A DNA stretch of 26,750 bases from a virus (IMGVR_UViG_2529293065_000012), one strand, 5' to 3'. Shown: positions 1-26,750, counted from the first letter of the stretch. Translations and numbers: made by a program. Notes: generated by a model from the sequence alone, not told the origin.

Positions 1-1005
1 TTAATCCCCCGTGGACACTGCGTGGACACTTACGCCACCTTTCAGCGGATTAAGGGCCACCGCATCCTGCAGGTAATCCGGTGCAAAATGCGCATATGCC
101 ATTGTTTGCTGAATGGTTGCGTGACCAAGAATCTTCTGAAGCGCAATAATGTTTCCTCCGTTCATCACAAAATGGCTGGCGAACGTATGCCGCAGCACAT
201 GTGCAGCCTGGCCTTTTGGTAAATCGGGCTTAACTCTTTTCAGCGCCAGGCAGAATTCCCGGTACTTCACCTCAAACAAGCTGCCTGTTTCTCTGGTTTT
301 GATCGCCTCACAAACTGCCTGCGAAATTGGCACTGTTCTCTTCCGGCCATTTTTGGTTTCAAGAAACGTTACACGGTTATGAACTATCTGTTCACCACGA
401 AGCTTACAAGCTTCACTCCAGCGCGCCCCTGTGCTTAAACACAAAAGCGCAACACGCCAGTAGTCGCCCTCCAGTGTATCGAGCAATAGCGCCACTTCCT
501 TCTGTGACAGGAACGCCATTTCTCGTGGAGATACATAAAGAATAGAAATTCCCCTTACTGGATGTTCTGCATCCCAAAGACCTATTTTTTTCAGCACGGT
601 AAACATTCCGGATAACCGATTCATGTACCTGTTAGCAGATGACGGTTTCAATCCTTCAGCTATCTTTTGAGAACGCCACGCGATAATTTTCAGCTTATCA
701 AGATCCACAGCCTGCATATCAGCGCCAAGCTCATTAATTATGTTGCGCAGTTGTTTTCGGTCTTCTTCCGCCTTACGCCTGTGCTGGCCGTGATACATCC
801 ACCACAACTCAAGCAAATCATTTAGCGTTCGACGATCACGGTAGCCCTGTATATATTCCCGCTTTTCAGCGTTCGCCATGATGTAGCGTTCAGTGGCCAC
901 CGCTACCGATTTTTTGTCAAATACCTTACGCACGCGCTTTCCCTTGCGTCCGTTCGGCCTGATGTCCAGCAAATAACGACCATCTTCGAGCTTCTTAATC
1001 GACAT
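1..1005 (-). CDS. int: P2-family tyrosine integrase
   Basis: ORF 1..1020 (-). N-terminus MSIKKLEDGRY resembles P2 Int; C-terminal HxLRHTFAS and GHATIQQTMAYAH motifs are typical of the tyrosine recombinase catalytic domain. ATG at 1003-1005 is preceded by GGAGGG. Stop codon is at the window edge. Confidence 0.9.
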   Translation of the reverse strand: MSIKKLEDGRYLLDIRPNGRKGKRVRKVFDKKSVAVATERYIMANAEKREYIQGYRDRRTLNDLLELWWMYHGQHRRKAEEDRKQLRNIINELGADMQAVDLDKLKIIAWRSQKIAEGLKPSSANRYMNRLSGMFTVLKKIGLWDAEHPVRGISILYVSPREMAFLSQKEVALLLDTLEGDYWRVALLCLSTGARWSEACKLRGEQIVHNRVTFLETKNGRKRTVPISQAVCEAIKTRETGSLFEVKYREFCLALKRVKPDLPKGQAAHVLRHTFASHFVMNGGNIIALQKILGHATIQQTMAYAHFAPDYLQDAVALNPLKGGVSVHAVSTGD

Positions 1006-1101
1006 TACGAAGCCCTCCAATGAACCGCTCTACAATTTCTCCAGCCTCTTTCCAGCAATAATCAGACCAGACAAAAAGCAGGTCTAACCAGTTTTCTGGC
1101 C

Positions 1102-5138: not shown

Positions 5139-7946
5139 ATGACGGCAGAGTACATCAGGGACTGGCAACAACCGCGCCACGCAGTGGGGCGTGAAGGAAC
5201 GGGGATCCCCGCTCCTGAATCCGCGCTTTCCTCCTGGCTGGATGCCTACCGGGTAGAGAACGAGCGCTGCCAGGAAATGGCTGATGCGGCGTTCTCCGCA
5301 ACGCCGCTGGGCAACCTGATTAATAAAAGCCTGGACGCACAGGAAAAACAGGACAAAACCATCACACTGGCAGGAGACGCCAGAAAACAGGCACGCGGCG
5401 CGGTGGATGAAGCCATGGCTTCGCTGCGCCTGCTGCCGTCCTATCTGCGCGATCCGCTTATTCGCCCCCTCTCCTTCCTGCGCAAAAAACAGGAAGCCGA
5501 TCGTCAGAAAGGCAAAAAGAGCTGGCAGGCTGAACGCTACGCGCGCGGAAACCTGCGCAAAATATTCGAACGTCTGGAGCGCACCGATCACCGCTGGCTG
5601 ACACAGGGTTATCGCTCCCTTGCCGGACGCGAACGCCTGGATGATTTGCTTTACCTGCCGCAGCTCAACCAGCACCAGATACAGACGCTGGCCACCATGA
5701 CGGCGGCGATGTTCAGCAGCACCTTCGAAAAACTCTGCGATGGCTTTGGCGCGACCGATGGCGAACTGACCATGGATGTAACGCTGAAGGCGTATCAGAT
5801 GCTGGCCCGCATGGGGTTACACCTGCACGCCATGCCGCCACATTACGAAGCTCTGAACAAGAGCGATCCGGATACGGAACTGTTACCGGGCGCAATCCTT
5901 CGCCTGACCTGTGCGGAATGGTGGAAACGCAAACTGTGGCTGTTACGTTGCGAGTGGCGGGAAGAACAACTCCGCGCCGCCTGTCTGGTTTCCAGAAAAA
6001 CATCGCCCTATCTGAGCCAGGACGCGTTAAGCGAGTTTCGCGCACAGCGCGAGAAAACACGCGATTTCCTGAAAAGTTTCATGCTGGAAAACGAAGACGG
6101 GTTCACGATTGATCTCGAGACAGTGTATTACGCGGGAGTAAGTAACCCGGTTCACCGTAAGGCAGAAATGATGGCCACCATGAAGGGGCTGGAACTTCTG
6201 GCCGAAGCCCGTGGCGACAAAGCGGTGTTTCTGACCATCACCTGCCCGTCAAAATACCACGCCACAACAGAGAACGGTCATCCGAATCCCAAATGGAACG
6301 GGGCCACCATGCGCGACTCCAGCGATTACCTGGTTAACACGTTTTTTGCGGCGGTCCGCAAGAAACTGAACCGCGACGGCCTGCGCTGGTATGGCATCCG
6401 CACGGTGGAGCCTCACCATGACGGCACCGTGCACTGGCATATGATGGTCTTTGCTCATCCGGAAGAAATCGACACCATTGTGTCCCACACCCGCGATATT
6501 GCCATTCAGGAAGATCGTCACGAGCTGGGTGATGATATTACCCCACGCTTTAAGGCGGAGTACGTCGACGGCTCAAAAGGCACGCCAACCAGCTACATCG
6601 CCACCTACATCGGAAAGAACCTGGACAGCCGCGCCGTAGATGGCATCGACCCGAAAACGGGCAAGCCACGCGTTGACCACGAAACCGGAAAATCAATGGC
6701 CGAGAGCGTGGAACGCGCCATCGGCTGGGCGCGCCTTCACCGTGTCCGCCAGTTCCAGTTCTTTGGTATCCCCTCCCGTCAGGTGTGGCGTGAACTCCGC
6801 CGCCTTGCCAGCCAGATGGCACGCAACCCGGAAGGCCCGCAACGGCTGAAGGATGACGCAATGGATGCGGTACTCGCTGCCGCTGATGCCGGATGTTTTG
6901 CCACCTACATAGAGAAACAGGGCGGCGTACTTGTTCCACGCCAAGACTACCTGATTCGCACCGCCTACGACCTCGCAGATGAGCTGAACGATTACGGCGA
7001 ACAGAGCGTACAGATTTACGGGATCTGGTCGCCGCTCATCGGGGAGTCTTCCCGCGTATGCACGCATCCGGATAACTGGAAGCTGGTAAGACGCAAACCG
7101 GAAGCGGAAGACAGCTCCCACGAAAATGGTTTTGACCTTCAGGGCGGCCCTGCCGCCCCTTGGACTCGTGGCAATAACTGTCCCCGTGTACAGGAAACGG
7201 ACAACAACGGGACAGAACAGCCGGAAGAACGGCCAGCACCGTGGCCGCAGCTTCCTGACGGCGTTGACGTGAATGAATGGATGCGCTCACTGAAACGGCA
7301 CGAACGCCGGGCGCTGATGCGTTCGCTGCGTGACAAACAGGCAAAAAACAGCAGTGATGAAATGCAGAACTGGACACAGAGCCGCAAACAGCCACAGCCT
7401 TTGCCTGATAACCACGAGTTACTCGCTAAAGAATGGCGGGAGTCTGCTGAATCTCTCGGCCTGCATATCGGTGAACAGCAGATGCAGCACCTGTTACGGG
7501 GCGGCAGTCTGTACGTTGACGGCAGCATCATTGCACCGCAGGGATTTGAAATTGTACGCAAACCGGATACCCGCCCGGACAGCCGAATCACGCAGCTCTG
7601 GCAACGCCTGAGTCGTAATCACGGCGTAAGCAGCACGGAGATCCGCCATAACCCGGTCGCCAGCTATCTGGAACAACTAGAGGCATCAGACCCTGAAGCC
7701 GCCGCACGCCTGGCATCCACACTTCAGCAAGACCAGAACACCATGAAAACACCAGTTACCGTACTTTCTGACATGCTGCGCGCCATCCGCGACGCAGAGC
7801 ACGCACAGAGAATCAGTGAAACCACTGAACGCGCCCGCCGCAAAGCAGACCTGCTGCGGGGTGGCCTGAGCAGTGGAAACAAAAAACAGACAAAAACGGG
7901 ATTCACAAATCCCGTAAATGAGCAAAAAACGCGCCGCGATATATGA
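5139..7946 (+). CDS. A: Rolling-circle replication initiator endonuclease (P2 gpA family), with a long C-terminal extension
   Basis: 935 aa. HUH-type motifs (TITCPSKYHATT ... HWHMMVF) and the catalytic tyrosine region (SYIATYIGKN) match P2 A. The roughly 170 C-terminal residues are low-complexity and charged. Confidence 0.9.
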   Translation: MTAEYIRDWQQPRHAVGREGTGIPAPESALSSWLDAYRVENERCQEMADAAFSATPLGNLINKSLDAQEKQDKTITLAGDARKQARGAVDEAMASLRLLPSYLRDPLIRPLSFLRKKQEADRQKGKKSWQAERYARGNLRKIFERLERTDHRWLTQGYRSLAGRERLDDLLYLPQLNQHQIQTLATMTAAMFSSTFEKLCDGFGATDGELTMDVTLKAYQMLARMGLHLHAMPPHYEALNKSDPDTELLPGAILRLTCAEWWKRKLWLLRCEWREEQLRAACLVSRKTSPYLSQDALSEFRAQREKTRDFLKSFMLENEDGFTIDLETVYYAGVSNPVHRKAEMMATMKGLELLAEARGDKAVFLTITCPSKYHATTENGHPNPKWNGATMRDSSDYLVNTFFAAVRKKLNRDGLRWYGIRTVEPHHDGTVHWHMMVFAHPEEIDTIVSHTRDIAIQEDRHELGDDITPRFKAEYVDGSKGTPTSYIATYIGKNLDSRAVDGIDPKTGKPRVDHETGKSMAESVERAIGWARLHRVRQFQFFGIPSRQVWRELRRLASQMARNPEGPQRLKDDAMDAVLAAADAGCFATYIEKQGGVLVPRQDYLIRTAYDLADELNDYGEQSVQIYGIWSPLIGESSRVCTHPDNWKLVRRKPEAEDSSHENGFDLQGGPAAPWTRGNNCPRVQETDNNGTEQPEERPAPWPQLPDGVDVNEWMRSLKRHERRALMRSLRDKQAKNSSDEMQNWTQSRKQPQPLPDNHELLAKEWRESAESLGLHIGEQQMQHLLRGGSLYVDGSIIAPQGFEIVRKPDTRPDSRITQLWQRLSRNHGVSSTEIRHNPVASYLEQLEASDPEAAARLASTLQQDQNTMKTPVTVLSDMLRAIRDAEHAQRISETTERARRKADLLRGGLSSGNKKQTKTGFTNPVNEQKTRRDI

Positions 7947-7988
7947 AGCGCGCACAAAACAGGCGAAAACGGGATTTAAAAATCCCGT
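7896..7988. repeat. Two copies of an approximately 35-bp direct repeat, each containing a 20-bp palindrome (ACGGGATT-N4-AATCCCGT); candidate ParR-binding centromere/operator
   Basis: ACGGGATTCACAAATCCCGT at 7896-7915 and ACGGGATTTAAAAATCCCGT at 7969-7988, with similar flanks. The first overlaps the last codons of gene A; the second is 35 bp upstream of the parM-like ATG. Confidence 0.45.
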
Positions 7989-8022
7989 AAACGATTAATT
8001 AATCAACATAAGGAAAAGCTAC

Positions 8023-8982
8023 ATGAAAATTTGTATCGACGACGGCTCCACCAACATCAAGCTGGCATGGACTGAGAACGGCGAATGCCGCAACGCCATC
8101 AGCCCGAACAGCTTCAAGTCGGAATGGTCTGCGCCGTTCGGTGTCACGCAGCCCGCGAACTACATGCTTGATGGCGTGCGCTATGGTTTTGATCCGGTCA
8201 GCGATCGCTTTGTCCAGACGACCGACACGCAATACCAGTACAGCGATGTGAATGTCATTGCCATTCATCACGCGCTGGTCAAATCAGGCATCACGCCACA
8301 GGAAGTGGATGTGGTTGTCACCCTGCCACTGAGCGAGTATTTCGACACAAACGCACAGCCGGATATGACCAACATCAACCGCAAAAAAGCGAACGTCATG
8401 CGCCCGGTGGAGTACCAGAACGGTGAGGCATTCACTATCCGTAACGTGCGGGTTATGCCTGAATCCATTCCGGCTGGCTTTAAGGCACTGGCTAACATGA
8501 GTCCGTTTGAATCCCTGCTGATTGTGGATTTAGGCGGAACCACGCTGGATGTGGCAAAGGTTCAGGGGCAACTGGCAGGTATCAGCCAGGTGTTTTGCGA
8601 TCCACACGTAGGCGTTTCTCTGATGGCCGATGCCGTACTGTCGGTGATGGCCACTAACGGTATGCGCACCAGTCACCACATCGCCAATACCATTATCGAA
8701 CATCGCCATGATGAAGCCTGGCTGCGCCAGCACATCCACAATGACGCGCATTACGCCAGCCTGATGGCGGTTATTCGTGAAAAGGAAGAAACACTGAAAC
8801 AACGCGTGATCCGCGCGCTGGCGGTTTTTTCGGGTTACGGGCGGGTGATGGTTGTCGGTGGCGGGGCGGAGATTGTGGCACCCGCTATCCGCGAAGCCTG
8901 CGGAGTTAATGCGACTTTCATCGCGGACGGGGTGCCACAGTTTGCTCTGGTTAATGGGCTGTACGCAATGGACAAGGAGTAA
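8023..8982 (+). CDS. parM: ParM/StbA-like actin-family partition ATPase
   Basis: 319 aa. IDDGSTNIKLAW, ISPNSFK, YSDVNVIAIHHAL, VMPESIPAG, LIVDLGGTTLD, GVSL and VVGGGAE align with my recollection of plasmid R1 ParM. AAGGA ribosome-binding site. Confidence 0.85.
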   Translation: MKICIDDGSTNIKLAWTENGECRNAISPNSFKSEWSAPFGVTQPANYMLDGVRYGFDPVSDRFVQTTDTQYQYSDVNVIAIHHALVKSGITPQEVDVVVTLPLSEYFDTNAQPDMTNINRKKANVMRPVEYQNGEAFTIRNVRVMPESIPAGFKALANMSPFESLLIVDLGGTTLDVAKVQGQLAGISQVFCDPHVGVSLMADAVLSVMATNGMRTSHHIANTIIEHRHDEAWLRQHIHNDAHYASLMAVIREKEETLKQRVIRALAVFSGYGRVMVVGGGAEIVAPAIREACGVNATFIADGVPQFALVNGLYAMDKE

Positions 8983-8986
8983 ACCA

Positions 8987-9301
8987 ATGACGACATCAAC
9001 CAGACGGATAAGTTTCTATCTGAAGCCAGACGCCGTCAAGAGTGAACAAGAGGCGTGCAATTACCTCGATAGCCTGCCAGCCTCCGAACGCAGCCGCGCG
9101 CAACGCGCGGCCTTTCTGGCCGGACTGGCACTCATAAAACGCAACCCAGCATTTGCCTACTGGATGGCCGAATGGCCAGAGGATAACCTCCCCTTCAATA
9201 CCATTAGCACCAAGGAAACATACCAAGATAATCCGCCTAGCGGAATTGAATGCAATTTTTATAAAATAAAAAAGAATATTCAGACCTTATTCCCTGAATA
9301 A
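8987..9301 (+). CDS. parR: ParR-like centromere-binding adaptor
   Basis: 104 aa from the ATG at 8987 (in frame within ORF 8852..9301), AAGGAG 8 nt upstream. ISFYLKPD...LDSLPASERSRAQRAAFLAGLAL parallels the R1 ParR N-terminal ribbon-helix-helix region. Lies immediately downstream of the parM-like gene. Confidence 0.7.
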   Translation: MTTSTRRISFYLKPDAVKSEQEACNYLDSLPASERSRAQRAAFLAGLALIKRNPAFAYWMAEWPEDNLPFNTISTKETYQDNPPSGIECNFYKIKKNIQTLFPE

Positions 9302-9350
9302 TCTGATAATTGAATTTGAACTAATAAAACACATACCAACACATCATTCT

Positions 9351-9373
9351 GGCACCCTTGCTAACAGGGTGCC
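9351..9373 (+). terminator. Stem-loop (GGCACCCT / AGGGTGCC) between convergent parR-like and membrane-protein genes
   Basis: 8-bp inverted repeat with a 7-nt loop, followed by A/T-rich sequence. Confidence 0.35.
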
Positions 9374-9385
9374 AATGATTTCAAA

Positions 9386-10228
9386 TCATGATGAAATTGC
9401 CGAAGTTTTTTTATCGTGCTGAAGTACCGCAAATGCCATCAAAACCTCAAGAGAATAGCGGCGATAATACTTAACAAAACCATAATAAAATACTCGAGAT
9501 GCAGCAAGAAAAAACAAGAAAAGAGGACCAAAAGGTAACAATCTGATATTTATATCTATTAAGTAAGATAGAGGGGCTAGACACATAATCAACCAGACTG
9601 AGGCGAGAAAAACGAATGTAATGTTTCTACAAAAACCATATAGAGCAACATAGTTTTGTATTTTCAACTGATGATTTTTCGAATGTTCATACACATAATG
9701 ATAAGCAAGACGAAAAAGATCTCCCCTCAACCCTTTGCGTCGATACAACGTAGAAACAGAAAAATTATTTATATAGCCATTTCGTATTTGCGGCCAAAAG
9801 GCCTTAATAAGTATAGGATGTAGTGTGGTTTTATGACACTCAGCTTTATCAAGAATTGATACAGGAAACAAAAAAACTCTACGAATAAAATTAAATATCT
9901 GGAATCCTGTACCACGGCGTTTTATTTTCAGGGGGTTTTTCGGGGAAAACAGATAAGTCGAAGGATATCCAAGCTTACTGTTCATGTATTTTTCAATTAA
10001 ACAGGATGATAGAATAGATATGAAGTGACCTAAAATATATGATAGAACGATCAATGTCACATACATAAACACACTTATTATTTCTTTATATTTCAAGATG
10101 TGGTTTAGAATACTCTCGACATAACCAGGGTTAATTTCAATAGAAAACAAAAAAAGGATAAACAGGAATAATCCACCTGGAATTAGATACCCCAAAAAGT
10201 CATAAAATGAAAACGGATTCTGTGTCAC
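9386..10228 (-). CDS. Polytopic membrane protein of unknown function (280 aa, about 4 predicted TM helices), second gene of an AT-rich accessory operon
   Basis: ORF track entry. Apparent GTG start at 10226-10228 preceded by AGGGGG. Hydrophobic segments near residues 10-30, 50-78, 205-226 and 233-254. Markedly AT-rich compared with flanking phage genes (by inspection, not computed). Confidence 0.7.
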   Translation of the reverse strand: MTQNPFSFYDFLGYLIPGGLFLFILFLFSIEINPGYVESILNHILKYKEIISVFMYVTLIVLSYILGHFISILSSCLIEKYMNSKLGYPSTYLFSPKNPLKIKRRGTGFQIFNFIRRVFLFPVSILDKAECHKTTLHPILIKAFWPQIRNGYINNFSVSTLYRRKGLRGDLFRLAYHYVYEHSKNHQLKIQNYVALYGFCRNITFVFLASVWLIMCLAPLSYLIDINIRLLPFGPLFLFFLAASRVFYYGFVKYYRRYSLEVLMAFAVLQHDKKTSAISS

Positions 10229-10267
10229 ACTTCCCCCTGTGCTACTTGTAAATTAAAGAGTCAAACA

Positions 10268-10765
10268 TTATTTGTTTTTCCGTAAAGGATTAGCTTTCCA
10301 TCTTCTTACTAACCATTCGAATTCTTGATATGTAGTATCCGAATTAATGCTTTCTCTGATTGCTTTAATTAATGGCTCGGCAATATCATATGTCTCTACA
10401 ACTGTTGTGTAAGATGTTCTTTTTATCATTTTTTCATCATAAATACCTTCACGAATACTTACAGCAACTCGCTCGTAAAAATTTAAAATATATTGAAATT
10501 TTCGACGCTCGGCCATTTCCTCATCTGTTATTGTACAACCATCACAAGGAAAAACATAAGAACGAAATGATTTGCCTGAACGATGCACTTGTTTCAGGGT
10601 ATGCAATGACTCTATATATTGCATATCTTGCCGACTCTCAAAAAGAAAGTTAGCCGTTTGAGTTTTCTTTGCGGTACGCACATTGTAGATAATGGTTCCA
10701 ATGGCAACCAAAACGCCAAGCAGAACAATAGCATTGCTGATGATTTGTAGTGTTATTGGGTTCAT
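10268..10765 (-). CDS. Protein of unknown function with a single N-terminal TM helix (165 aa), first gene of an AT-rich accessory operon
   Basis: ATG at 10763-10765. N-terminal hydrophobic helix (IISNAIVLLGVLVAIGTIIY) then a soluble domain of about 135 aa. AT-rich. 39 bp from the downstream gene. Confidence 0.7.
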   Translation of the reverse strand: MNPITLQIISNAIVLLGVLVAIGTIIYNVRTAKKTQTANFLFESRQDMQYIESLHTLKQVHRSGKSFRSYVFPCDGCTITDEEMAERRKFQYILNFYERVAVSIREGIYDEKMIKRTSYTTVVETYDIAEPLIKAIRESINSDTTYQEFEWLVRRWKANPLRKNK

Positions 10766-10775
10766 CCTATTTCAT

Positions 10776-10807
10776 CCATAAAAAAGGCGGGGAGCAAATC
10801 CCCGCCT
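10776..10807 (-). terminator. Intrinsic terminator / attenuator hairpin on the minus strand, just upstream of the operon start codon
   Basis: 9-bp stem (AGGCGGGGA / TCCCCGCCT, 10785-10807) with a 5-nt loop, followed on the minus strand by a U6 run (10776-10784). Confidence 0.5.
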
Positions 10808-10826
10808 CATTAGAGGTCAACGTAGC

Positions 10827-10862
10827 TTAGAAACCATCAAATTCATCATACATTTTTTTCAT
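10827..10862 (-). other. Candidate 11-codon leader ORF (MKKMYDEFDGF)
   Basis: On the minus strand, GAGGGGG lies 5 nt before the ATG. The stop is about 19 nt upstream of the terminator hairpin. Confidence 0.25.
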
Positions 10863-10942
10863 ATCAACCCCCTCATAGAAATCATAACCACGTTTTGTGG
10901 TTTTTGTGACGCATAAACTACATCAAAGGCAAGCCACGGTCA

Positions 10943-10990
10943 AATATATAGGCATGCTTACCTGCACAAAAGTGCACAAATTTGCACAAT
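10943..10990. promoter_or_regulatory. TATATAT element plus three 10-bp phased TGCACAA direct repeats (candidate promoter/operator for the minus-strand accessory operon)
   Basis: TGCACAA at 10963-10969, 10973-10979 and 10983-10989. A/T hexamer at 10943-10950. Confidence 0.35.
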
Positions 10991-11413
10991 TTTTTTGAAC
11001 GACTTTTTGCCCTTCCGGCCCGCGTGGCGGCTGGAGCCGTCAAGGATCCGTGCATGCACAAAAAAACGCGCTTTTTCTGCGCGCAGGTGACGGGGGAACA
11101 GCCCGCGTTTCAGGGGGTAAATAGCATCCCCTGAACGATGTCGCAGCGACACAACAGAATGGCTGTATTTCTCACGCTGAGCGTGAAGAATACGTGAGGG
11201 ATTCTGATTTGATGGGGTGAAAGGTAAGGCCGTCAAAATCGCACTGAGGCGGCGAGAACATGCAGTCAACGCGGTGGGATTGCGTAAGAGTCTGACCGTC
11301 GATGGTGGCGATAAACTGGAAGGCGTCGTGAAATTATCTGACTGATACAGGAGCTGGAGAGTCGGGGCATAAATTTTTTATGCCCCGGCGAAGCAGCAGA
11401 CAAGCGAAGCGCG

Positions 11414-22833: not shown

Positions 22834-25140
22834 ATGAGTACCACAACACGAAAATTTAAAACCATTATCACTGATACTGGTGCCAAAAAATTAGCTCAGG
22901 CAGCCGCGCCAGGTGGTAATCCTGTCCGCCTGACTCACATGGCCGTGGGCGACGGTGGCGGCACGTTGCCCACACCAGACAGTAAGCAGACCCGTCTGGT
23001 GCATGAGGTGTGGCGACATACTGTTAATCGCGTCATCCTGGACGCAACACATCAGAACCGCATTATTGCGGAGCTGGTTATTCCTCCTGAAACGGGCGGA
23101 TTCTGGATCCGGGAAATTGGTGTATTTGATGAGCACGGCGATTTAATCGCGGTGGGCAATACTGCCGAAAGTTACAAACCAACCGTTGCCGAAGGGTCCG
23201 GACGTGCACAAACATTTCGCACCATTCTGACCGTATCCAGCACTGCCACCGTGGCGCTTACCGTGGATAACACCATGGTGATGGCCACAGTGGATTACGT
23301 GGATGACAAACTGAAAGAGCATGAACAGTCACGACGTCACCCGGATGCCTCGCTGACCGCAAAAGGCTTTGTTCAACTCAGTAGCGCCACTAACAGCGAT
23401 TCTGAAACGCTGGCTGCAACGCCGAAAGCGGTTAAGGCCGCGTATGACCTGGCTAACGGAAAATATACCGCTCAGGACGCCACGACGGCACGAAAAGGGA
23501 TAGTCCAGCTCAGCAGTGCAACCAACAGCACGTCTGAAACGCTGGCTGCGACACCAAAAGCGGTTAAGGCGGTAATGGATGAAACGAACAAGAAAGCGCC
23601 CTTAAATAGTCCTGCACTGACCGGAACGCCAACAACGCCAACTGCGCCAAAAGGTACTAATAATACTCAGATCGCAAGTACGGCTTATGTGATGGCCGCG
23701 ATTGCCGCCCTTGTAGACTCGTCGCCTGACGCACTGAATACGCTGAACGAGTTAGCGGCGGCGCTGGGCAACGACCCGAATTTTGCGACCACCATGACTA
23801 ACGCGCTTGCGGGTAAGCAACCGAAAGATGCCACCCTGACGGCGCTGGCCGGGCTTGCTACTGCGGCAGACAGGTTTCCGTATTTTACGGGGAATGATGT
23901 CGCCAGCCTGGCAACCCTGACAAAAGTCGGGCGGGATATTCTTGCGAAATCGACCGTTGCTGCCGTTATCGAATACCTCGGTTTGCAGGAAACGGTAAAT
24001 AAGGCTTCTGGCGCATTACAGAAAAACCAGAACGGCGCAGATATTCCCGATAAAAAACTATTCCTGCGTAATATCGGCACAACAAATTCAACAACCATGT
24101 CTTTTAGTGGTGGTGCTGGATGGTTCAAACTGGCAACTGTAACAATGCCACAAGCCAGTTCCGTGGTTTACATAAGCCTGATTGGTGGCGCAGGGTATAA
24201 CGTTGGCTCCTCGCATCAAGCAGGCATCTCTGAGCTGGTTCTGCGTGCCGGAAATGGGAATCCAAAAGGTATTACTGGTGCATTATGGCGACGGACCTCG
24301 GTTGGATTTACTCATTTTGCATGGGTGAATACATCCGGTGATACCTATGACATTTATGTAGAAATAGGTAATTACGCCACAGGTGTTAATATTCAGTGGG
24401 ATTATACCAGTAACGCCAGCGTAACGATTCATACATCACCAACTTATACAGCGAATAAACCAACAGGCCTGACAGATGGAACTGTATATGTAATTTACAG
24501 TTCGCACATTAAACCGACTGCTGCTGAGGTTGGGGCGTTGTCATTATCTGGCGGTCAATTGAATGGTGCACTGGGCATCGGAACATCCAGTGTTCTTGGC
24601 GGTAACTCGATTGTTTTGGGGGATAATGATACTGGTTTCAAACAGAACGGCGATGGCCTTCTTGATGTTTATGCTAATAGTCAGCATGTATTCCGTTTCC
24701 AGAATGGCGTGGCTATTGCTTTAAAAAACATTCAGGCCGGAGATGGTAAAAAACTCTCGCTATCAAGCTCCAACAACTCCACAAAGAATGCAAGGTTTAA
24801 TTTATGGGGTAATTCATCCCGCCCCGTAGTTGCAGAACTTGGTGATGATTCAGGTTGGCATTTTTATAGTCAAAGAAATACAGATAATTCAGTATTGTTC
24901 TCCGTTAACGGTCAGATAAACCCCAACAACTGGAGTAACTTTGATTCTCGTTATGTGAGAGATGTCCGACTTGGTACACGTGTTGTTCAGACTATGCAAA
25001 AAGGCGTGATGTATGAGAAATCAGGTCATGCAATTACGGGGCTTGGCATTATTGGCGCTGTTGATGGCGATGATCCGGCTGTATTCAGACCAATACAAAA
25101 ATACATCAATGGCACATGGTATAACGTCGCACAGGTATAA
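22834..25140 (+). CDS. H: Tail fibre protein (P2 gpH family); constant N-terminal part joined to a switchable C-terminal part
   Basis: 768 aa. Conserved N-terminus. Internal duplicated LSSATNS-SETLAATPKAVKA motif. A recombination-site-like sequence at 23966-23993 marks the constant/variable junction. Confidence 0.9.
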   Translation: MSTTTRKFKTIITDTGAKKLAQAAAPGGNPVRLTHMAVGDGGGTLPTPDSKQTRLVHEVWRHTVNRVILDATHQNRIIAELVIPPETGGFWIREIGVFDEHGDLIAVGNTAESYKPTVAEGSGRAQTFRTILTVSSTATVALTVDNTMVMATVDYVDDKLKEHEQSRRHPDASLTAKGFVQLSSATNSDSETLAATPKAVKAAYDLANGKYTAQDATTARKGIVQLSSATNSTSETLAATPKAVKAVMDETNKKAPLNSPALTGTPTTPTAPKGTNNTQIASTAYVMAAIAALVDSSPDALNTLNELAAALGNDPNFATTMTNALAGKQPKDATLTALAGLATAADRFPYFTGNDVASLATLTKVGRDILAKSTVAAVIEYLGLQETVNKASGALQKNQNGADIPDKKLFLRNIGTTNSTTMSFSGGAGWFKLATVTMPQASSVVYISLIGGAGYNVGSSHQAGISELVLRAGNGNPKGITGALWRRTSVGFTHFAWVNTSGDTYDIYVEIGNYATGVNIQWDYTSNASVTIHTSPTYTANKPTGLTDGTVYVIYSSHIKPTAAEVGALSLSGGQLNGALGIGTSSVLGGNSIVLGDNDTGFKQNGDGLLDVYANSQHVFRFQNGVAIALKNIQAGDGKKLSLSSSNNSTKNARFNLWGNSSRPVVAELGDDSGWHFYSQRNTDNSVLFSVNGQINPNNWSNFDSRYVRDVRLGTRVVQTMQKGVMYEKSGHAITGLGIIGAVDGDDPAVFRPIQKYINGTWYNVAQV
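23966..23993. other. gix/hix-like crossover site for a Gin/Hin/Cin-family serine invertase, inside gene H
   Basis: TTATCGAATACCTCGGTTTGCAGGAAAC closely matches phage Mu gixL as I recall it (TTATCCAAAACCTCGGTTTACAGGAAAC). Confidence 0.6.
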
Positions 25141-25143
25141 TTT

Positions 25144-25671
25144 ATGCAGCATTTAAAAAATATTACTGCAGGTAATCCCAAAACTATCGAACAGTATCAA
25201 CTTACAAAAGAATTTGATGTTATCTGGTTATGGTCCGAAGACGGAAAAAACTGGTATGAGGAAGTGAAAAACTTTCAGCCAGACACAATAAAGATTGTTT
25301 ACGATGCAAATAATATTATTGTCGCCATCACCAAAGATGCCTCCACGCTTAACCCTGAAGGTTATAGCGTCGTTGAGGTTCCAGATATTACAGCCAACCG
25401 CCGCGCTGATGATTCCGGTAAGTGGATGTTTAGGGACGGAGCTGTGGTTAAACGGATTTATACGGCAGACGAGCAACAACAACAGGCCGAATCACAAAAG
25501 GCCGCGTTGCTTTCTGAAGCTGAAAGCGTTATTCAGCCACTGGAACGCGCTGTCAGGCTGAATATGGCGACGGATGAGGAGCGTACACGACTGGAGTCAT
25601 GGGAACGCTACAGCGTTCTGGTCAACCGTGTGGATACAGCAAAGCCCGAATGGCCACAAAAGCCTGAATAA
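25144..25671 (+). CDS. Tail fibre assembly chaperone (gpG/Tfa family), expressed in the current orientation
   Basis: 175 aa. Immediately follows H. N-terminal 40 aa nearly identical to the inverted copy. Confidence 0.85.
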
Positions 25672-25676
25672 AAATT

Positions 25677-25696
25677 AAGGCCCGCTATCGGGCCTT
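25677..25696. terminator. Stem-loop (AAGGCCCG / CGGGCCTT) between convergent tail-fibre assembly genes
   Basis: 8-bp stem with a 4-nt loop, flanked by A/T-rich runs on both sides. Confidence 0.45.
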
Positions 25697-25699
25697 GTC

Positions 25700-26233
25700 T
25701 CATTCAGGTTGTTCGGGAAATATTACTGGCAGGCTGGAGGTGTCTGTAGATTCGACTTTCTGCGCATAGAGCATCCACTCGGTTAATTTTTGTTTATTCT
25801 CGTCGGAAATGATGCCCAGCCGTAGCTGTGAGTCCCATAGCTGTGTTTTATCCCTGACGAGCTGTAGCAGGCTTTGCTTTTCATTTTCCGCTTGTTGCCT
25901 CTGCTCTTCCTCGGTATAAGTTCGCTTTATCACTACGCCATCTTTGAACATCCAGTTGCCGGAAATATCAGCGCGTCGGTTTGCCGTAATATTGGGTAAC
26001 TCAACCACACTCATTCCCTCTGGATTAATCAGGGATACATCTTTCTCAATACAGCAAATAACACCCTCCTGGTTATATGCCACTTTTAACGTGTCAGGCT
26101 GGAAATTTTTCTGTTCCTCATACCAGTTCTTACCTTCTTCCGACCATAACCAGACAACATCAAATTCTTTTGTAAGTTGATACTGTTCGATAGTTTTGGG
26201 ATTTCCTGCTTTAATATTTTTTAAATGCTGCAT
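25700..26233 (-). CDS. Alternative tail fibre assembly chaperone (inverted orientation)
   Basis: ATG at 26231-26233 inside ORF 25700..26242. N-terminus [30 protein letters not shown] is near-identical to the plus-strand tfa. Confidence 0.8.
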   Translation of the reverse strand: MQHLKNIKAGNPKTIEQYQLTKEFDVVWLWSEEGKNWYEEQKNFQPDTLKVAYNQEGVICCIEKDVSLINPEGMSVVELPNITANRRADISGNWMFKDGVVIKRTYTEEEQRQQAENEKQSLLQLVRDKTQLWDSQLRLGIISDENKQKLTEWMLYAQKVESTDTSSLPVIFPEQPE

Positions 26234-26234
26234 A

Positions 26235-26750
26235 TTAAGCACGTCCTACATTGTACCAATGACCATTAATATATTTCTGAACAGGAGCGTAGACAGGCCA
26301 TTCTCTCGAATCATCAAAGTTGCCACCTGTCAGAACGTATCCGGCTGGAACCGTTCCGCCATCACCACCCCAGACAATCCCACTCTGGTTAGCACCCATG
26401 CGAACGTCACGAACATAGCGTGAGTCAAAATTACCATAATTGCCGGGAATAATTTGCGAGCCGCAAAGCCAATTCCCGTTATTATCCATGTACGCCTGAC
26501 CATCGGTGCCATTGTCTGTCCTTGAGTTATTAATCATGTAGATGCCAAATTCCCTATTCCCCAGTCCACCAATCATAAATTTGCGGTCAGCATGGTCCTG
26601 ACGTAGCAATGCCTGGGCGCTATCAGTTTTAACTATATTTCTCCCAAAGATAGCGTTGTTATCGCGCATCTGAATCCACATACCATTACTGCTGTTAATA
26701 GCAAAACGGTTTGCAAATATATCCCCTGTAACATCAAGACCATGCCCCAT
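26235..26750 (-). CDS. Alternative tail-fibre C-terminal (variable) segment, 5'-truncated by the window edge; probably expressed only after inversion
   Basis: ORF runs off the window. C-terminal NFDSRYVRDVRMG ... PVQKYINGHWYNV matches the H C-terminus. Confidence 0.75.
   Translation of the reverse strand: MGHGLDVTGDIFANRFAINSSNGMWIQMRDNNAIFGRNIVKTDSAQALLRQDHADRKFMIGGLGNREFGIYMINNSRTDNGTDGQAYMDNNGNWLCGSQIIPGNYGNFDSRYVRDVRMGANQSGIVWGGDGGTVPAGYVLTGGNFDDSREWPVYAPVQKYINGHWYNVGRA

What the first reader, a model, noticed from the sequence alone, without database searches (positions are those of the whole stretch)
7896..9301. Plasmid-type ParM/ParR partition cassette with palindromic repeat sites inside an integrase-bearing P2-like prophage
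Seen in sequence: a 319-aa protein with actin-fold phosphate and adenosine motifs closely resembling plasmid R1 ParM, followed by a ParR-like 104-aa protein. Two copies of a 20-bp palindrome (ACGGGATT-N4-AATCCCGT, 7896-7915 and 7969-7988) bracket the probable promoter, and the first copy overlaps the end of gene A. Established knowledge: parC-ParR-ParM is an active segregation system of low-copy plasmids and is not part of canonical P2. Inference: either the phage can also persist as a low-copy episome (phage-plasmid behaviour), or the cassette is cargo with another role such as positioning replicating phage DNA.
Basis: partly seen in the sequence, partly recalled or inferred. Interest (0 to 1): 0.65.

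Follow-up and report, generated by a model that had tools for sequence, protein, structure and literature searches.

The report
ParM/ParR partition cassette in P2-like prophage
This prophage carries an intact plasmid-style DNA-segregation module (ParM motor, ParR adaptor, two palindromic candidate binding sites), but the cassette is already annotated in about a quarter of E. coli genomes and published work has already suggested it lets the phage persist as a plasmid; only its actual role is still untested.

Summary
ORF 8023-8982 is a full-length ParM: it matches both Pfam ParM domains and R1 ParM structures at E 1e-92. ORF 8987-9301 is a ParR (PF10784). A profile of this ParR with eight relatives matches the pB171 ParR structure at E 3e-14. 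The two 20-bp palindromes lie exactly where stated. Each sits inside a 42-nt direct repeat, and the repeats are 73 bp apart.

The element is a P88-like (Xuanwuvirus) P2-family prophage. The same cassette occurs in 1304 of 5426 complete E. coli genomes, at 1442 chromosomal places and 2 plasmid places. More distant ParM/ParR pairs (54-63% ParM identity) occupy the same slot, between replication gene A and the portal gene, in Hafnia, Plesiomonas, Serratia and Enterobacter prophages. parM is under purifying selection and has the GC content of the phage backbone. It is therefore an old, conserved phage module, not recent cargo.

I found no sigma-70 promoter between the palindromes. Stable plasmid carriage is not what assemblies show.

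My best reading, which is inference, is transient segregation of extrachromosomal phage circles, as srpMRC does for SXT/R391 elements.

The finding is not new. Rousset et al. 2022 and Pfeifer et al. 2021 made the same observation and proposed the same idea.

The parts
5139..7946 (+). Replication gene A (rolling-circle initiator). Its last 17 codons contain repeat unit 1. It is context for, and the upstream neighbour of, the cassette.
   Evidence: PF05840 Phage_GPA E 2.4e-130; ORF list
7880..7921 (.). Repeat unit 1: an A-rich flank plus the 20-bp palindrome ACGGGATTCACAAATCCCGT (7896-7915). Candidate ParR site, one half of a mini-centromere.
   Evidence: The GGGAyT..AATCC core is invariant in the 14-copy alignment and predominant, with rare single changes, among 66 upstream haplotypes. 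The same motif occurs only twice in whole P88-like genomes.
7953..7994 (.). Repeat unit 2: an A-rich flank plus the 20-bp palindrome ACGGGATTTAAAAATCCCGT (7969-7988), 73 bp from unit 1 and 34 nt upstream of the parM start codon. Candidate ParR site and operator.
   Evidence: Plesiomonas has an analogous pair of repeats at spacing 72.
7998..8006 (+). ATTAATCAA motif just upstream of the ribosome-binding site (AAGGA, 8010-8014). It is conserved in the E. coli, Hafnia and Plesiomonas versions. Its role is unknown; it could be a weak -10-like element.
   Evidence: upstream sequences; invariant in the 14-copy alignment
8023..8982 (+). parM: actin-like segregation ATPase, 319 aa.
   Evidence: dN/dS 0.06-0.19
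8987..9301 (+). parR: ribbon-helix-helix adaptor, 104 aa, with a conserved C-terminal NxxxLFP tail. The allele is mosaic: DNA similarity to P88 ends near 9041.

Best explanation
This is a complete type II (ParMRC-like) DNA segregation module, maintained by selection. It is a conserved component of one lineage of P2-family temperate phages (P88-like phages, genus Xuanwuvirus, and relatives in other Enterobacterales). It is not recent cargo.

Shown here: ParM is an intact R1-type actin-like ATPase. ParR is a ribbon-helix-helix adaptor with the family's conserved C-terminal tail. The cassette sits on the same strand directly after replication gene A. The only strong repeats nearby are two palindrome-containing 42-nt units, 73 bp (about 7 helical turns) apart, in DNA with phased A-tracts.

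Inferred mechanism:
1. ParR dimers bind the four AATCCCG half-sites, which resemble the AAACCC core of R1 iterons, and form a small partition complex on each circular phage genome.
2. ParM-ATP filaments capture ParR-bound circles and push them apart.
3. The phage is almost always found integrated. It keeps an integrase and has only a rolling-circle replicon. The cassette has no recognisable promoter of its own and no + strand terminator separates it from gene A.
4. I therefore expect expression from the early (Cox-to-A) operon and action only while the genome is extrachromosomal: after infection and before integration, or after excision and early replication. This would distribute circles to both daughter cells and limit loss of the phage, as srpMRC does for SXT/R391 integrative elements.
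For: - Identity of ParM and ParR.
- Conserved position: ParM relatives at 54-63% identity in Hafnia, Plesiomonas, Serratia and Enterobacter ludwigii all lie between gene A and the portal gene of P2-like prophages, each followed by a PF10784 ParR. In a neighbour-joining tree they group apart from plasmid ParMs.
- Selection and age: parM dN/dS is 0.06-0.19 against ten copies. parM GC is 0.54-0.57, like the backbone, against 0.32-0.35 for the adjacent cargo.
- Repeats: they are unique to this spot in whole phage genomes and not expected by chance. Arms vary less than loops across 59 haplotypes. Plesiomonas has two different repeats at spacing 72, the first again overlapping the end of gene A. The Serratia/Enterobacter clade has a large inverted repeat with GGGAAC/GTTCCC ends.
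- Resemblance to R1 parC: R1-type parC iterons are AAACCCAAAAC. AA periodicity of 10-11 nt indicates bent DNA.
- Expression context: no + strand promoter or terminator between gene A and parM. A Pe-like promoter lies at 1407-1436, upstream of cox.
- Integrated state: 1442 of 1444 places are chromosomal.
- Precedents: SXT/R391 srpMRC, with a four-repeat centromere, stabilises an integrating, rolling-circle-replicating element (PMC4489591). CGP3 AlpAC acts on excised phage circles (PMC4446434).
Against: - No binding, filament or stability data exist for this cassette. ParR binding to the palindromes is inferred only.
- Two palindromes (four half-sites) are far fewer than the ten iterons of R1 parC and may not support a ParR ring.
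- The arms carry common single substitutions (GGGACT, AATCCTG) and are only modestly more conserved than their surroundings.
- On the minus strand each palindrome also looks like a hairpin followed by a T-run.
- Absence of a promoter in a consensus scan does not prove co-transcription with gene A.
- The tree has no bootstrap support.
- P2-type replication gives many monomeric circles in a cell committed to lysis, where partition would bring no obvious benefit.
Confidence: 0.55

Rival explanations
1. Phage-plasmid lifestyle. The cassette lets the prophage persist stably as a low-copy extrachromosomal plasmid, as an alternative to integration. This is the published suggestion.
For: - The par module is complete and intact.
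- Pfeifer 2021 lists P88 among its phage-plasmids, while noting that it was previously found integrated. Rousset 2022 suggests plasmid maintenance.
- One PLSDB record, pZ1323PEC0009-2, is a 34,461-bp circle containing the whole phage including int.
- P88 and pZ1323 also carry a hok/gef gene, a family known from plasmid stability loci.
Against: - 1442 of 1444 places in complete E. coli genomes are chromosomal.
- The other plasmid records are large replicons of 228 kb to 1.4 Mb plus one 27-kb partial linear record. One of them, checked here, carries the prophage as an IS26-truncated insert.
- Integrase is retained. No theta-type plasmid replicon was found, only rolling-circle gene A.
- P88 was obtained by mitomycin C induction of lysogenic strain K88, and Pfeifer et al. 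note it was previously found integrated.
- A single circular record could equally be excised or replicating phage DNA captured by the assembler.
Confidence: 0.15
2. Lytic-cycle organiser. ParM/ParR positions or disperses replicating phage circles to make replication or packaging efficient, as AlpAC does for CGP3 or PhuZ for jumbo phages, with no role in inheritance.
For: - The cassette directly follows replication gene A on the same strand, with no terminator between them.
- In CGP3, AlpC and AlpA are early-induced and are needed for full copy number of the circular phage DNA (PMC4446434).
- From established knowledge of P2, not tested here: P2 replicates to monomeric circles.
Against: - ParM here is a close relative of a segregating R1-type ParM (47% identity), not a divergent Alp.
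- About three quarters of P2-like phages do without the cassette, so it is not needed for P2-type replication.
- There are no expression or phenotype data.
Confidence: 0.25
3. Hot-spot cargo. The cassette is one more accessory or defence-type insert in the gpA-gpQ variable region, serving the host or excluding competitors, for example through partition incompatibility.
For: It lies at the left edge of the gpA-gpQ hot spot described by Rousset 2022. The adjacent DNA (9302-11413) is low-GC variable cargo.
Against: - ParM and ParR have no PADLOC match.
- The position and order are the same in five genera, at 54-63% ParM identity, while the cargo downstream differs each time.
- GC content equals that of the backbone.
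- Selection is purifying.
- ParR is only about 40% identical to IncF ParR, over its ribbon-helix-helix domain, and the repeats differ from R1 iterons, so cross-reaction with plasmids is unlikely.
Confidence: 0.07
4. The two palindromes are not ParR sites. They are hairpins acting at the RNA or DNA level: minus-strand intrinsic terminators protecting gene A from antisense transcription, or mRNA stabilisers. The true centromere would then lie elsewhere or be absent.
For: - The terminator scan flags 7915-7896 on the minus strand (8 pairs followed by a T-run).
- Both copies fold at about -10 kcal/mol on either strand.
- Every single substitution seen keeps a G-U pair on one of the two strands.
Against: - No compensatory double changes occur among 66 haplotypes.
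- Substitutions favour the minus strand in copy 1 and the plus strand in copy 2, so no single strand is consistently preserved.
- The Plesiomonas counterparts keep the two-copy arrangement at 72-bp spacing but have only 4-bp arms and a 10-nt loop, which makes poor hairpins.
- The repeat extends 16 nt beyond the stem.
- No minus-strand gene reads into this point.
- The motif sits exactly where type II centromeres lie, upstream of parM.
Confidence: 0.2

Closest known systems
parMRC (parA locus) of plasmid R1/NR1 (IncFII), type II partition system
   Same: - The gene order is repeats, then parM, then parR.
- ParM is 47% identical with all nucleotide-binding motifs.
- The ParR ribbon-helix-helix domain is 40% identical, and the C-terminal KKNxxxL(F/I) tail is conserved.
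- The repeats lie in A-rich, phased DNA with a CCC core.
   Different: - The host replicon is an integrating, rolling-circle-replicating tailed phage, not a low-copy theta plasmid.
- R1-type parC has 2 x 5 direct 11-bp iterons. From established knowledge of R1, these flank the parA promoter. Here there are only two 20-bp palindromes (four half-sites), 73 bp apart, and no detectable promoter between them.
- ParR is shorter (104 against 116 aa), with a different linker.
Escherichia phage P88 and other Xuanwuvirus phages (Peduoviridae): parM/parR genes gp17 and gp18
   Same: The element is the same. The region is 95-99% identical in DNA, with gene A, parM and parR in the same order, and both palindromes are present 73 bp apart.
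   Different: The window carries a different parR allele (50% identical, with conserved N-terminal strand and C-terminal tail) and different hot-spot cargo. The breakpoint is near 9041.
srpMRC of SXT/R391 integrative conjugative elements (Carraro et al. 2015, PMC4489591)
   Same: It is a type II partition module in an element that normally sits integrated and replicates by a rolling-circle-type initiator when excised. [quoted passage not shown]
   Different: SrpM and SrpR are only distantly related to R1 ParM and ParR, and the element is conjugative, not a phage. Function was shown experimentally there and has not been shown here.
AlpC/AlpA/alpS of Corynebacterium prophage CGP3 (Donovan et al. 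2015, PMC4446434)
   Same: An integrated prophage encodes an actin-like filament former and a DNA-binding adaptor that binds repeats upstream of its own operon. The system acts on excised circular phage DNA.
   Different: AlpC is a divergent Alp in an actinobacterial host. Its reported role is efficient replication or membrane targeting rather than segregation.
StbA-type ParM of phage-plasmid D6 (P1-like)
   Same: It is the only other phage record with a ParM relative (48% identity).
   Different: From established knowledge of P1-like phages, not tested here: D6 is a true plasmid prophage, for which partition has an obvious role.

Membership tests
ParM (type II partition actin-like ATPase, Pfam StbA_N + ParM C-terminal domain) | Full-length match to both ParM domains and to solved R1 ParM | tested here: met
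   PF06406 273 bits and PF21523 231 bits, each spanning the whole model. Chain 1mwk at E 1.4e-92 over residues 2-316.
ParM (type II partition actin-like ATPase, Pfam StbA_N + ParM C-terminal domain) | Intact actin-fold nucleotide-binding motifs (phosphate 1, connect/PESIPAG, phosphate 2, adenosine) | tested here: met
   IDDGSTNIK, MPESIPAG, DLGGTTLD and GGGAE align with R1 ParM. The core residues of each motif are invariant in the 12-sequence phage-clade alignment.
ParM (type II partition actin-like ATPase, Pfam StbA_N + ParM C-terminal domain) | ATP-dependent, dynamically unstable filaments that push ParR-bound DNA apart | not testable with these tools
   Needs biochemistry or microscopy.
ParR (ribbon-helix-helix centromere-binding adaptor, PF10784) | N-terminal ribbon-helix-helix domain of the StbB/ParR family, encoded directly downstream of parM | tested here: met
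   PF10784 at 101 bits. A profile of nine ParRs matches pB171 ParR 2jd3 at E 3e-14. R6, F10, L12, P14, R35, R40 and the A-x-x-A-G-x-A-L residues of helix 2 are invariant. The gene starts 5 nt after the parM stop codon.
ParR (ribbon-helix-helix centromere-binding adaptor, PF10784) | C-terminal tail that docks into ParM | tested here: inconclusive
   A C-terminal N-x-x-x-L/M-F/I motif is shared with the IncF R1-type ParR. That this tail is the ParM-binding peptide rests on established knowledge of R1 ParR-ParM structures, not on a test here.
parC centromere of R1-type ParMRC | Array of about ten directly repeated iterons upstream of parM, flanking and overlapping the par promoter | tested here: not met
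   There are only two 20-bp palindromes (four half-sites) at 73-bp spacing, and no + strand sigma-70-like promoter between 7600 and 8022. The IncF comparator has 2 x 5 iterons. Repeats upstream of parM do exist, so the general layout is kept.
parC centromere of R1-type ParMRC | Specific binding by the cognate ParR and stabilisation of an unstable replicon in cis | not testable with these tools
   Needs EMSA or footprinting and a plasmid-stability assay.
Phage-plasmid (prophage maintained extrachromosomally) | The lysogenic form is an autonomous replicon with a plasmid-type replication system | tested here: not met
   1442 of 1444 places are chromosomal. Only one phage-sized circular record exists. 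Integrase is present. The only replication gene found is rolling-circle gene A.
P2-like phage (Peduoviridae, genus Xuanwuvirus) | P2 gene set and order: int, C, cox, A, then Q and P on the opposite strand, O, N, M; with close DNA identity to named members | tested here: met
   Pfam hits for integrase, HTH repressor, Cox, gene A, portal and terminase. The cassette region (window 7800-9400) is 95-99% identical to P88, 520873, 503458 and P884B11, all classified as Xuanwuvirus.

The most novel reading that the evidence does not exclude
The cassette is a working type II partition machine with a minimal centromere (two palindromes, four half-sites). It has been vertically inherited in a lineage of integrating, rolling-circle-replicating tailed phages. 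It acts only on the transient extrachromosomal circle, at establishment or after excision, to raise lysogenisation or reduce curing. That would make it the phage counterpart of SXT/R391 srpMRC and the first demonstrated role for ParMRC in a non-plasmid coliphage.
Probability: 0.4. Interest if true: 0.5.

Novelty: already known. Interest (0 to 1): 0.3.

Why it matters
About a quarter of E. coli genomes carry this cassette inside a P2-like prophage, yet I found no published test of what a plasmid segregation motor does for a phage that integrates.

If it partitions transient phage circles, active segregation would be shown to stabilise integrating phages as well as plasmids and integrative conjugative elements. 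It would also give a very small natural centromere for studying ParR-ParM assembly.

As a discovery it adds little. The genes are routinely annotated, and the phage-plasmid idea is already in print (Rousset 2022; Pfeifer 2021).

This analysis adds three things:
- a candidate centromere;
- evidence that the module is conserved across a phage lineage rather than hot-spot cargo;
- genome-scale evidence against a stable plasmid state.

Tried and rejected
- NCBIfam gave only sub-threshold hits (PRTRC_D 21.7 bits; PRK13917 ParM 19 bits against a cut-off of 417). Those models describe other ParM lineages, so this is not evidence against ParM identity.
- PADLOC gave no hit for ParM or ParR.
- The promoter scan found nothing on the + strand upstream of parM. 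By eye, TTTAAA-17-ATTAAT (7975-8003) matches 8 of 12 positions and lacks the A at position 2 of the -10 element. I treated it as weak.
- The genome-contig scan with the single ParM returned only three near-identical loci, because the method depends on exact words.
- Two IMG/VR scans returned mostly the E. coli lineage. They were useful for haplotype counts but added only three divergent loci.
- The first literature searches were swamped by word-start matches such as Parma, Parmley and parmentieri.
- I tried to check whether the strain carrying the 34.5-kb circular record also has an integrated copy. The record is not in the E. coli genome collection.
- I rejected RNA or cruciform hairpin selection as the main explanation for the palindromes, because there are no compensatory double changes in 66 haplotypes.
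- I rejected decay or pseudogene status on the basis of dN/dS and intact annotation across genomes.
- No structure prediction was run. ParM is 47% identical to an R1-type ParM, whose structure is solved, so it would add nothing.

Full report
**1. The observation**

- The sequence at 7700-9500 and the ORF list show gene A ending at 7946, a 319-aa ORF at 8023-8982 and a 104-aa ORF at 8987-9301.
- The 319-aa protein matches both Pfam ParM domains end to end (PF06406 273 bits, PF21523 231 bits). It matches solved R1 ParM chains at E 1.4e-92 over residues 2-316. It is 47% identical to an IncF R1-type ParM.
- The phosphate-1, PESIPAG, phosphate-2 and adenosine motifs are intact.
- The 104-aa protein matches PF10784 (Plasmid_stab_B, the StbB/ParR family) at 101 bits. 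Alone it hits pB171 ParR (2jd3) weakly, at E 0.006. A profile built from it and eight relatives hits 2jd3 at E 3e-14.
- PHROGs label both proteins 'partition protein'.
- The palindrome ACGGGATT-N4-AATCCCGT occurs at exactly 7896-7915 and 7969-7988. It occurs nowhere else in the window, even allowing three mismatches.
- The repeat finder shows that each palindrome is the core of a 42-nt direct repeat (7880-7921 and 7953-7994, 86% identical, 73 bp apart).
- In 5000 Markov-chain simulations of the surrounding 500 nt, 128 contained at least one perfect palindrome with 8-bp arms. None contained two sharing an arm.

**2. What the element is**

- Pfam hits identify integrase (1-1020, minus strand), a C-like HTH repressor, Cox, an Ash-family protein, gene A, portal and large terminase in P2 order.
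- The region 7800-9400 is 95-99% identical to Escherichia phage P88, phages 520873, 503458 and P884B11, Citrobacter phage phiSM and others. Those with a taxonomy line in the records I fetched are classified as Xuanwuvirus, family Peduoviridae.
- In RefSeq the genes are already named 'plasmid segregation protein ParM' and 'plasmid partitioning/stability family protein'.
- The same stretch is present in 1304 of 5426 complete E. coli genomes. That is 1442 places on chromosomes and 2 on plasmids.
- tblastn of ParM against 50,697 phage records finds only these P88-like phages plus the phage-plasmid D6 at 48% identity. Canonical P2 and 186 therefore lack the cassette.

**3. Conserved lineage module or cargo?**

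- A protein search found a gap between the E. coli lineage (91-98% identity) and the next relatives at 54-63%.
- I fetched the context of four of those relatives, from Hafnia, Plesiomonas, Serratia and Enterobacter ludwigii. In every case parM lies on the same strand downstream of a PF05840 gene A. It is followed by a PF10784 parR, then by unrelated variable genes, then by the portal and terminase genes on the other strand.
- Relatives at about 50% identity lie in a Dickeya conjugative element and in an integrated plasmid region.
- In a neighbour-joining tree of 106 ParMs, the P2-context proteins form two sister clades separate from plasmid ParMs. The tree has no bootstrap support.
- parM dN/dS against ten E. 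coli-lineage copies is 0.06-0.19.
- GC content of parM is 0.54-0.57, like the phage backbone. The DNA just downstream (9300-10700) is 0.32-0.35.
- These results point to an old, vertically kept phage module sitting at the left edge of the gpA-gpQ variable hot spot, not to a hot-spot insert.
- parR itself is mosaic. The window's allele is only 50% identical to P88 ParR. It keeps the N-terminal strand (TRRISFYLKP) and the C-terminal tail (N-I-x-x-LFPE). DNA similarity to P88 stops near 9041.

**4. The repeats as a candidate centromere**

- R1-type parC, read from an IncF plasmid, has two blocks of five 11-bp direct iterons (AAACCCAAAAC) in A-rich DNA.
- The phage has only two palindromes. Their half-sites (AAATCCCGT) resemble the R1 iteron core.
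- The region shows AA periodicity of 10-11 and 22 nt, as expected for bent DNA.
- The motif occurs only at this spot in the complete P88 and pZ1323 genomes, again 73 bp apart.
- In the 14-copy alignment the GGGAyT...AATCC core is invariant.
- Among 66 distinct upstream haplotypes, arms vary less than loops. Common single changes occur (GGGACT, AATCCTG). No haplotype carries a compensating pair of changes.
- The deeper comparison is more informative:
  - Plesiomonas has two copies of a different repeat (GCGGGACAAC...AACCC) at spacing 72. The first again overlaps the end of gene A.
  - Hafnia has CGGGTTCATTAAATCCC plus an R1-like AAACCCAAAAAC.
  - The Serratia/Enterobacter clade has one long interrupted inverted repeat, CGGGAACGATATAGAAAAAT-N26-28-ATTTTTCTGTTTCGTTCCC.
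- ParRs whose strand reads R-(R/K)-(I/V)-S-F-Y go with GGGA/TCCC-type repeats. Plasmid or conjugative-element ParRs with K-I-(M/N/Q)-F-Y go with ATCTC iterons.
- This pattern fits protein-recognised sites that co-evolve with ParR. That is inference; no binding was tested.
[quoted passage not shown] A small centromere therefore has a precedent.

**5. The rival reading of the palindromes**

- On the minus strand, copy 1 meets the scan's criteria for an intrinsic terminator. Both copies fold at about -10 kcal/mol on either strand.
- Against a hairpin function:
  - there are no compensatory changes;
  - substitutions preserve the minus-strand pairing in copy 1 but the plus-strand pairing in copy 2;
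  - the Plesiomonas counterparts have 4-bp arms and make poor hairpins;
  - the repeat extends 16 nt beyond the stem;
  - no minus-strand gene reads into this point.
- I give this reading about 0.2.

**6. Expression and likely role**

- No sigma-70-like promoter is found on the + strand between 7600 and 8022. No + strand terminator separates gene A from parM.
- A good promoter-like site (TTGACA-18-TATCCT) lies upstream of cox at 1407-1436.
The simplest reading is co-transcription with the early replication operon. That is inference.
- A conserved ATTAATCAA just before the ribosome-binding site (E. coli, Hafnia, Plesiomonas) could be a weak -10 element.
- Other facts bear on the role: near-universal chromosomal residence, a retained integrase and a rolling-circle initiator as the only replication gene.
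- Taken together, I favour a transient role. ParR marks each circular phage genome, and ParM filaments separate the circles while the genome is extrachromosomal, so that both daughter cells receive it and curing is reduced.
- The closest functional precedent is srpMRC of SXT/R391 elements, which integrate, replicate by a relaxase when excised, and are stabilised by a type II par system.
- An AlpAC-like role in lytic replication remains a serious alternative.

**7. The phage-plasmid hypothesis**

- Evidence for it:
  - the par module is intact;
  - P88 and pZ1323 carry a hok/gef gene;
  - one PLSDB record (NZ_CP148288.1, 34,461 bp, circular) is a whole P88-like phage including int.
- Evidence against it:
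  - the chromosome-to-plasmid ratio is 1442 to 2;
  - the other six PLSDB hits are large replicons, one of which I checked and found to carry an IS26-truncated prophage insert, plus one partial linear record;
  - P88 was obtained by mitomycin C induction of a lysogen and is reported to be integrated.
- I could not test whether the strain with the circular record also has an integrated copy.

**8. Novelty**

- Rousset et al. [quoted passage not shown]
- Pfeifer et al. 2021 list P88 among their phage-plasmids because of its partition genes, noting that it is integrated (PMC7969092).
- Magaziner et al. [quoted passage not shown]
- The P88 paper itself does not discuss the cassette.
- Both the observation and its interpretation are therefore already known. 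The function remains untested.
- The candidate centromere, the cross-genus synteny and the genome-scale argument against a stable plasmid state did not appear in the papers I read.
- Interest is low to moderate (0.3).

Noticed in passing
window 9302-11413: Low-GC (0.32-0.35) cargo lies in the gpA-gpQ hot spot, on the opposite strand from parMR. It has three ORFs: 280 aa (9386-10228; phrog_12528 of unknown function; weak N-terminal Csx27-like PADLOC hit at E 4e-5), a 165-aa DUF4760 protein (10268-10765) and a 103-aa ORF with no hit (10958-11269). The 280-aa and DUF4760 genes also occur together next to the same parR allele in the IncC plasmid copy (L006). This is a candidate anti-phage system.
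   Followed up: partly
window 8987-9301 (breakpoint near 9041): parR is mosaic. DNA similarity to P88 and many other copies ends about 55 nt into parR, and GC content falls in its 3' half. The alleles are 50% identical but keep the N-terminal strand and the C-terminal LFPE tail. Recombination that swaps hot-spot cargo seems to use parR as its left anchor.
   Followed up: partly
L011 (NZ_CP148288.1, 1-34461): A record deposited as the circular plasmid pZ1323PEC0009-2 is a complete P88-like phage genome with integrase, parMR, all virion genes and a hok/gef gene. It could be an episomal or an excised, replicating form. I could not check whether the strain also has an integrated copy.
   Followed up: partly
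L024 (P88, 34928-35068) and L011 (1291-1431): P88-like phages also carry a hok/gef family toxin gene near ogr and the att end. From established knowledge, R1 has two stability loci, parMRC and hok/sok, and both have counterparts in these phages. This region lies outside the window.
   Followed up: no
L006 (NZ_MK439959.1, 34014-58325): A P88-like prophage whose left end is truncated next to an IS26 copy sits inside a 228-kb IncC KPC plasmid. It carries the same parR allele and the same 280-aa and DUF4760 cargo genes as the window.
   Followed up: no
L003 (NZ_JBQPOM010000071.1): A contig labelled Vagococcus sp. WN89Y carries a ParM 97% identical to the window's, with the same upstream repeats. 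Contamination or mislabelling by an enterobacterial sequence is likely.
   Followed up: no
window 7998-8006: An ATTAATCAA motif lies a few bases before the parM ribosome-binding site. It is conserved in E. coli, Hafnia and Plesiomonas although the surrounding sequence has diverged. Its function is unknown.
   Followed up: partly
window 22834-26750: Tail-fibre and tail-fibre-assembly ORFs face each other (25144-25671 on the + strand, 25700-26242 on the - strand). In P88 the matching region is followed by a DNA invertase gene, which suggests an invertible host-range segment that the window cuts off.
   Followed up: no
window 5139-7946: Gene A encodes 935 aa. Gene A proteins range from 785 to 940 aa among the parMR-carrying relatives. 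The C-terminal tail (residues after about 915) overlaps repeat unit 1, and the same overlap is seen in Plesiomonas.
   Followed up: partly
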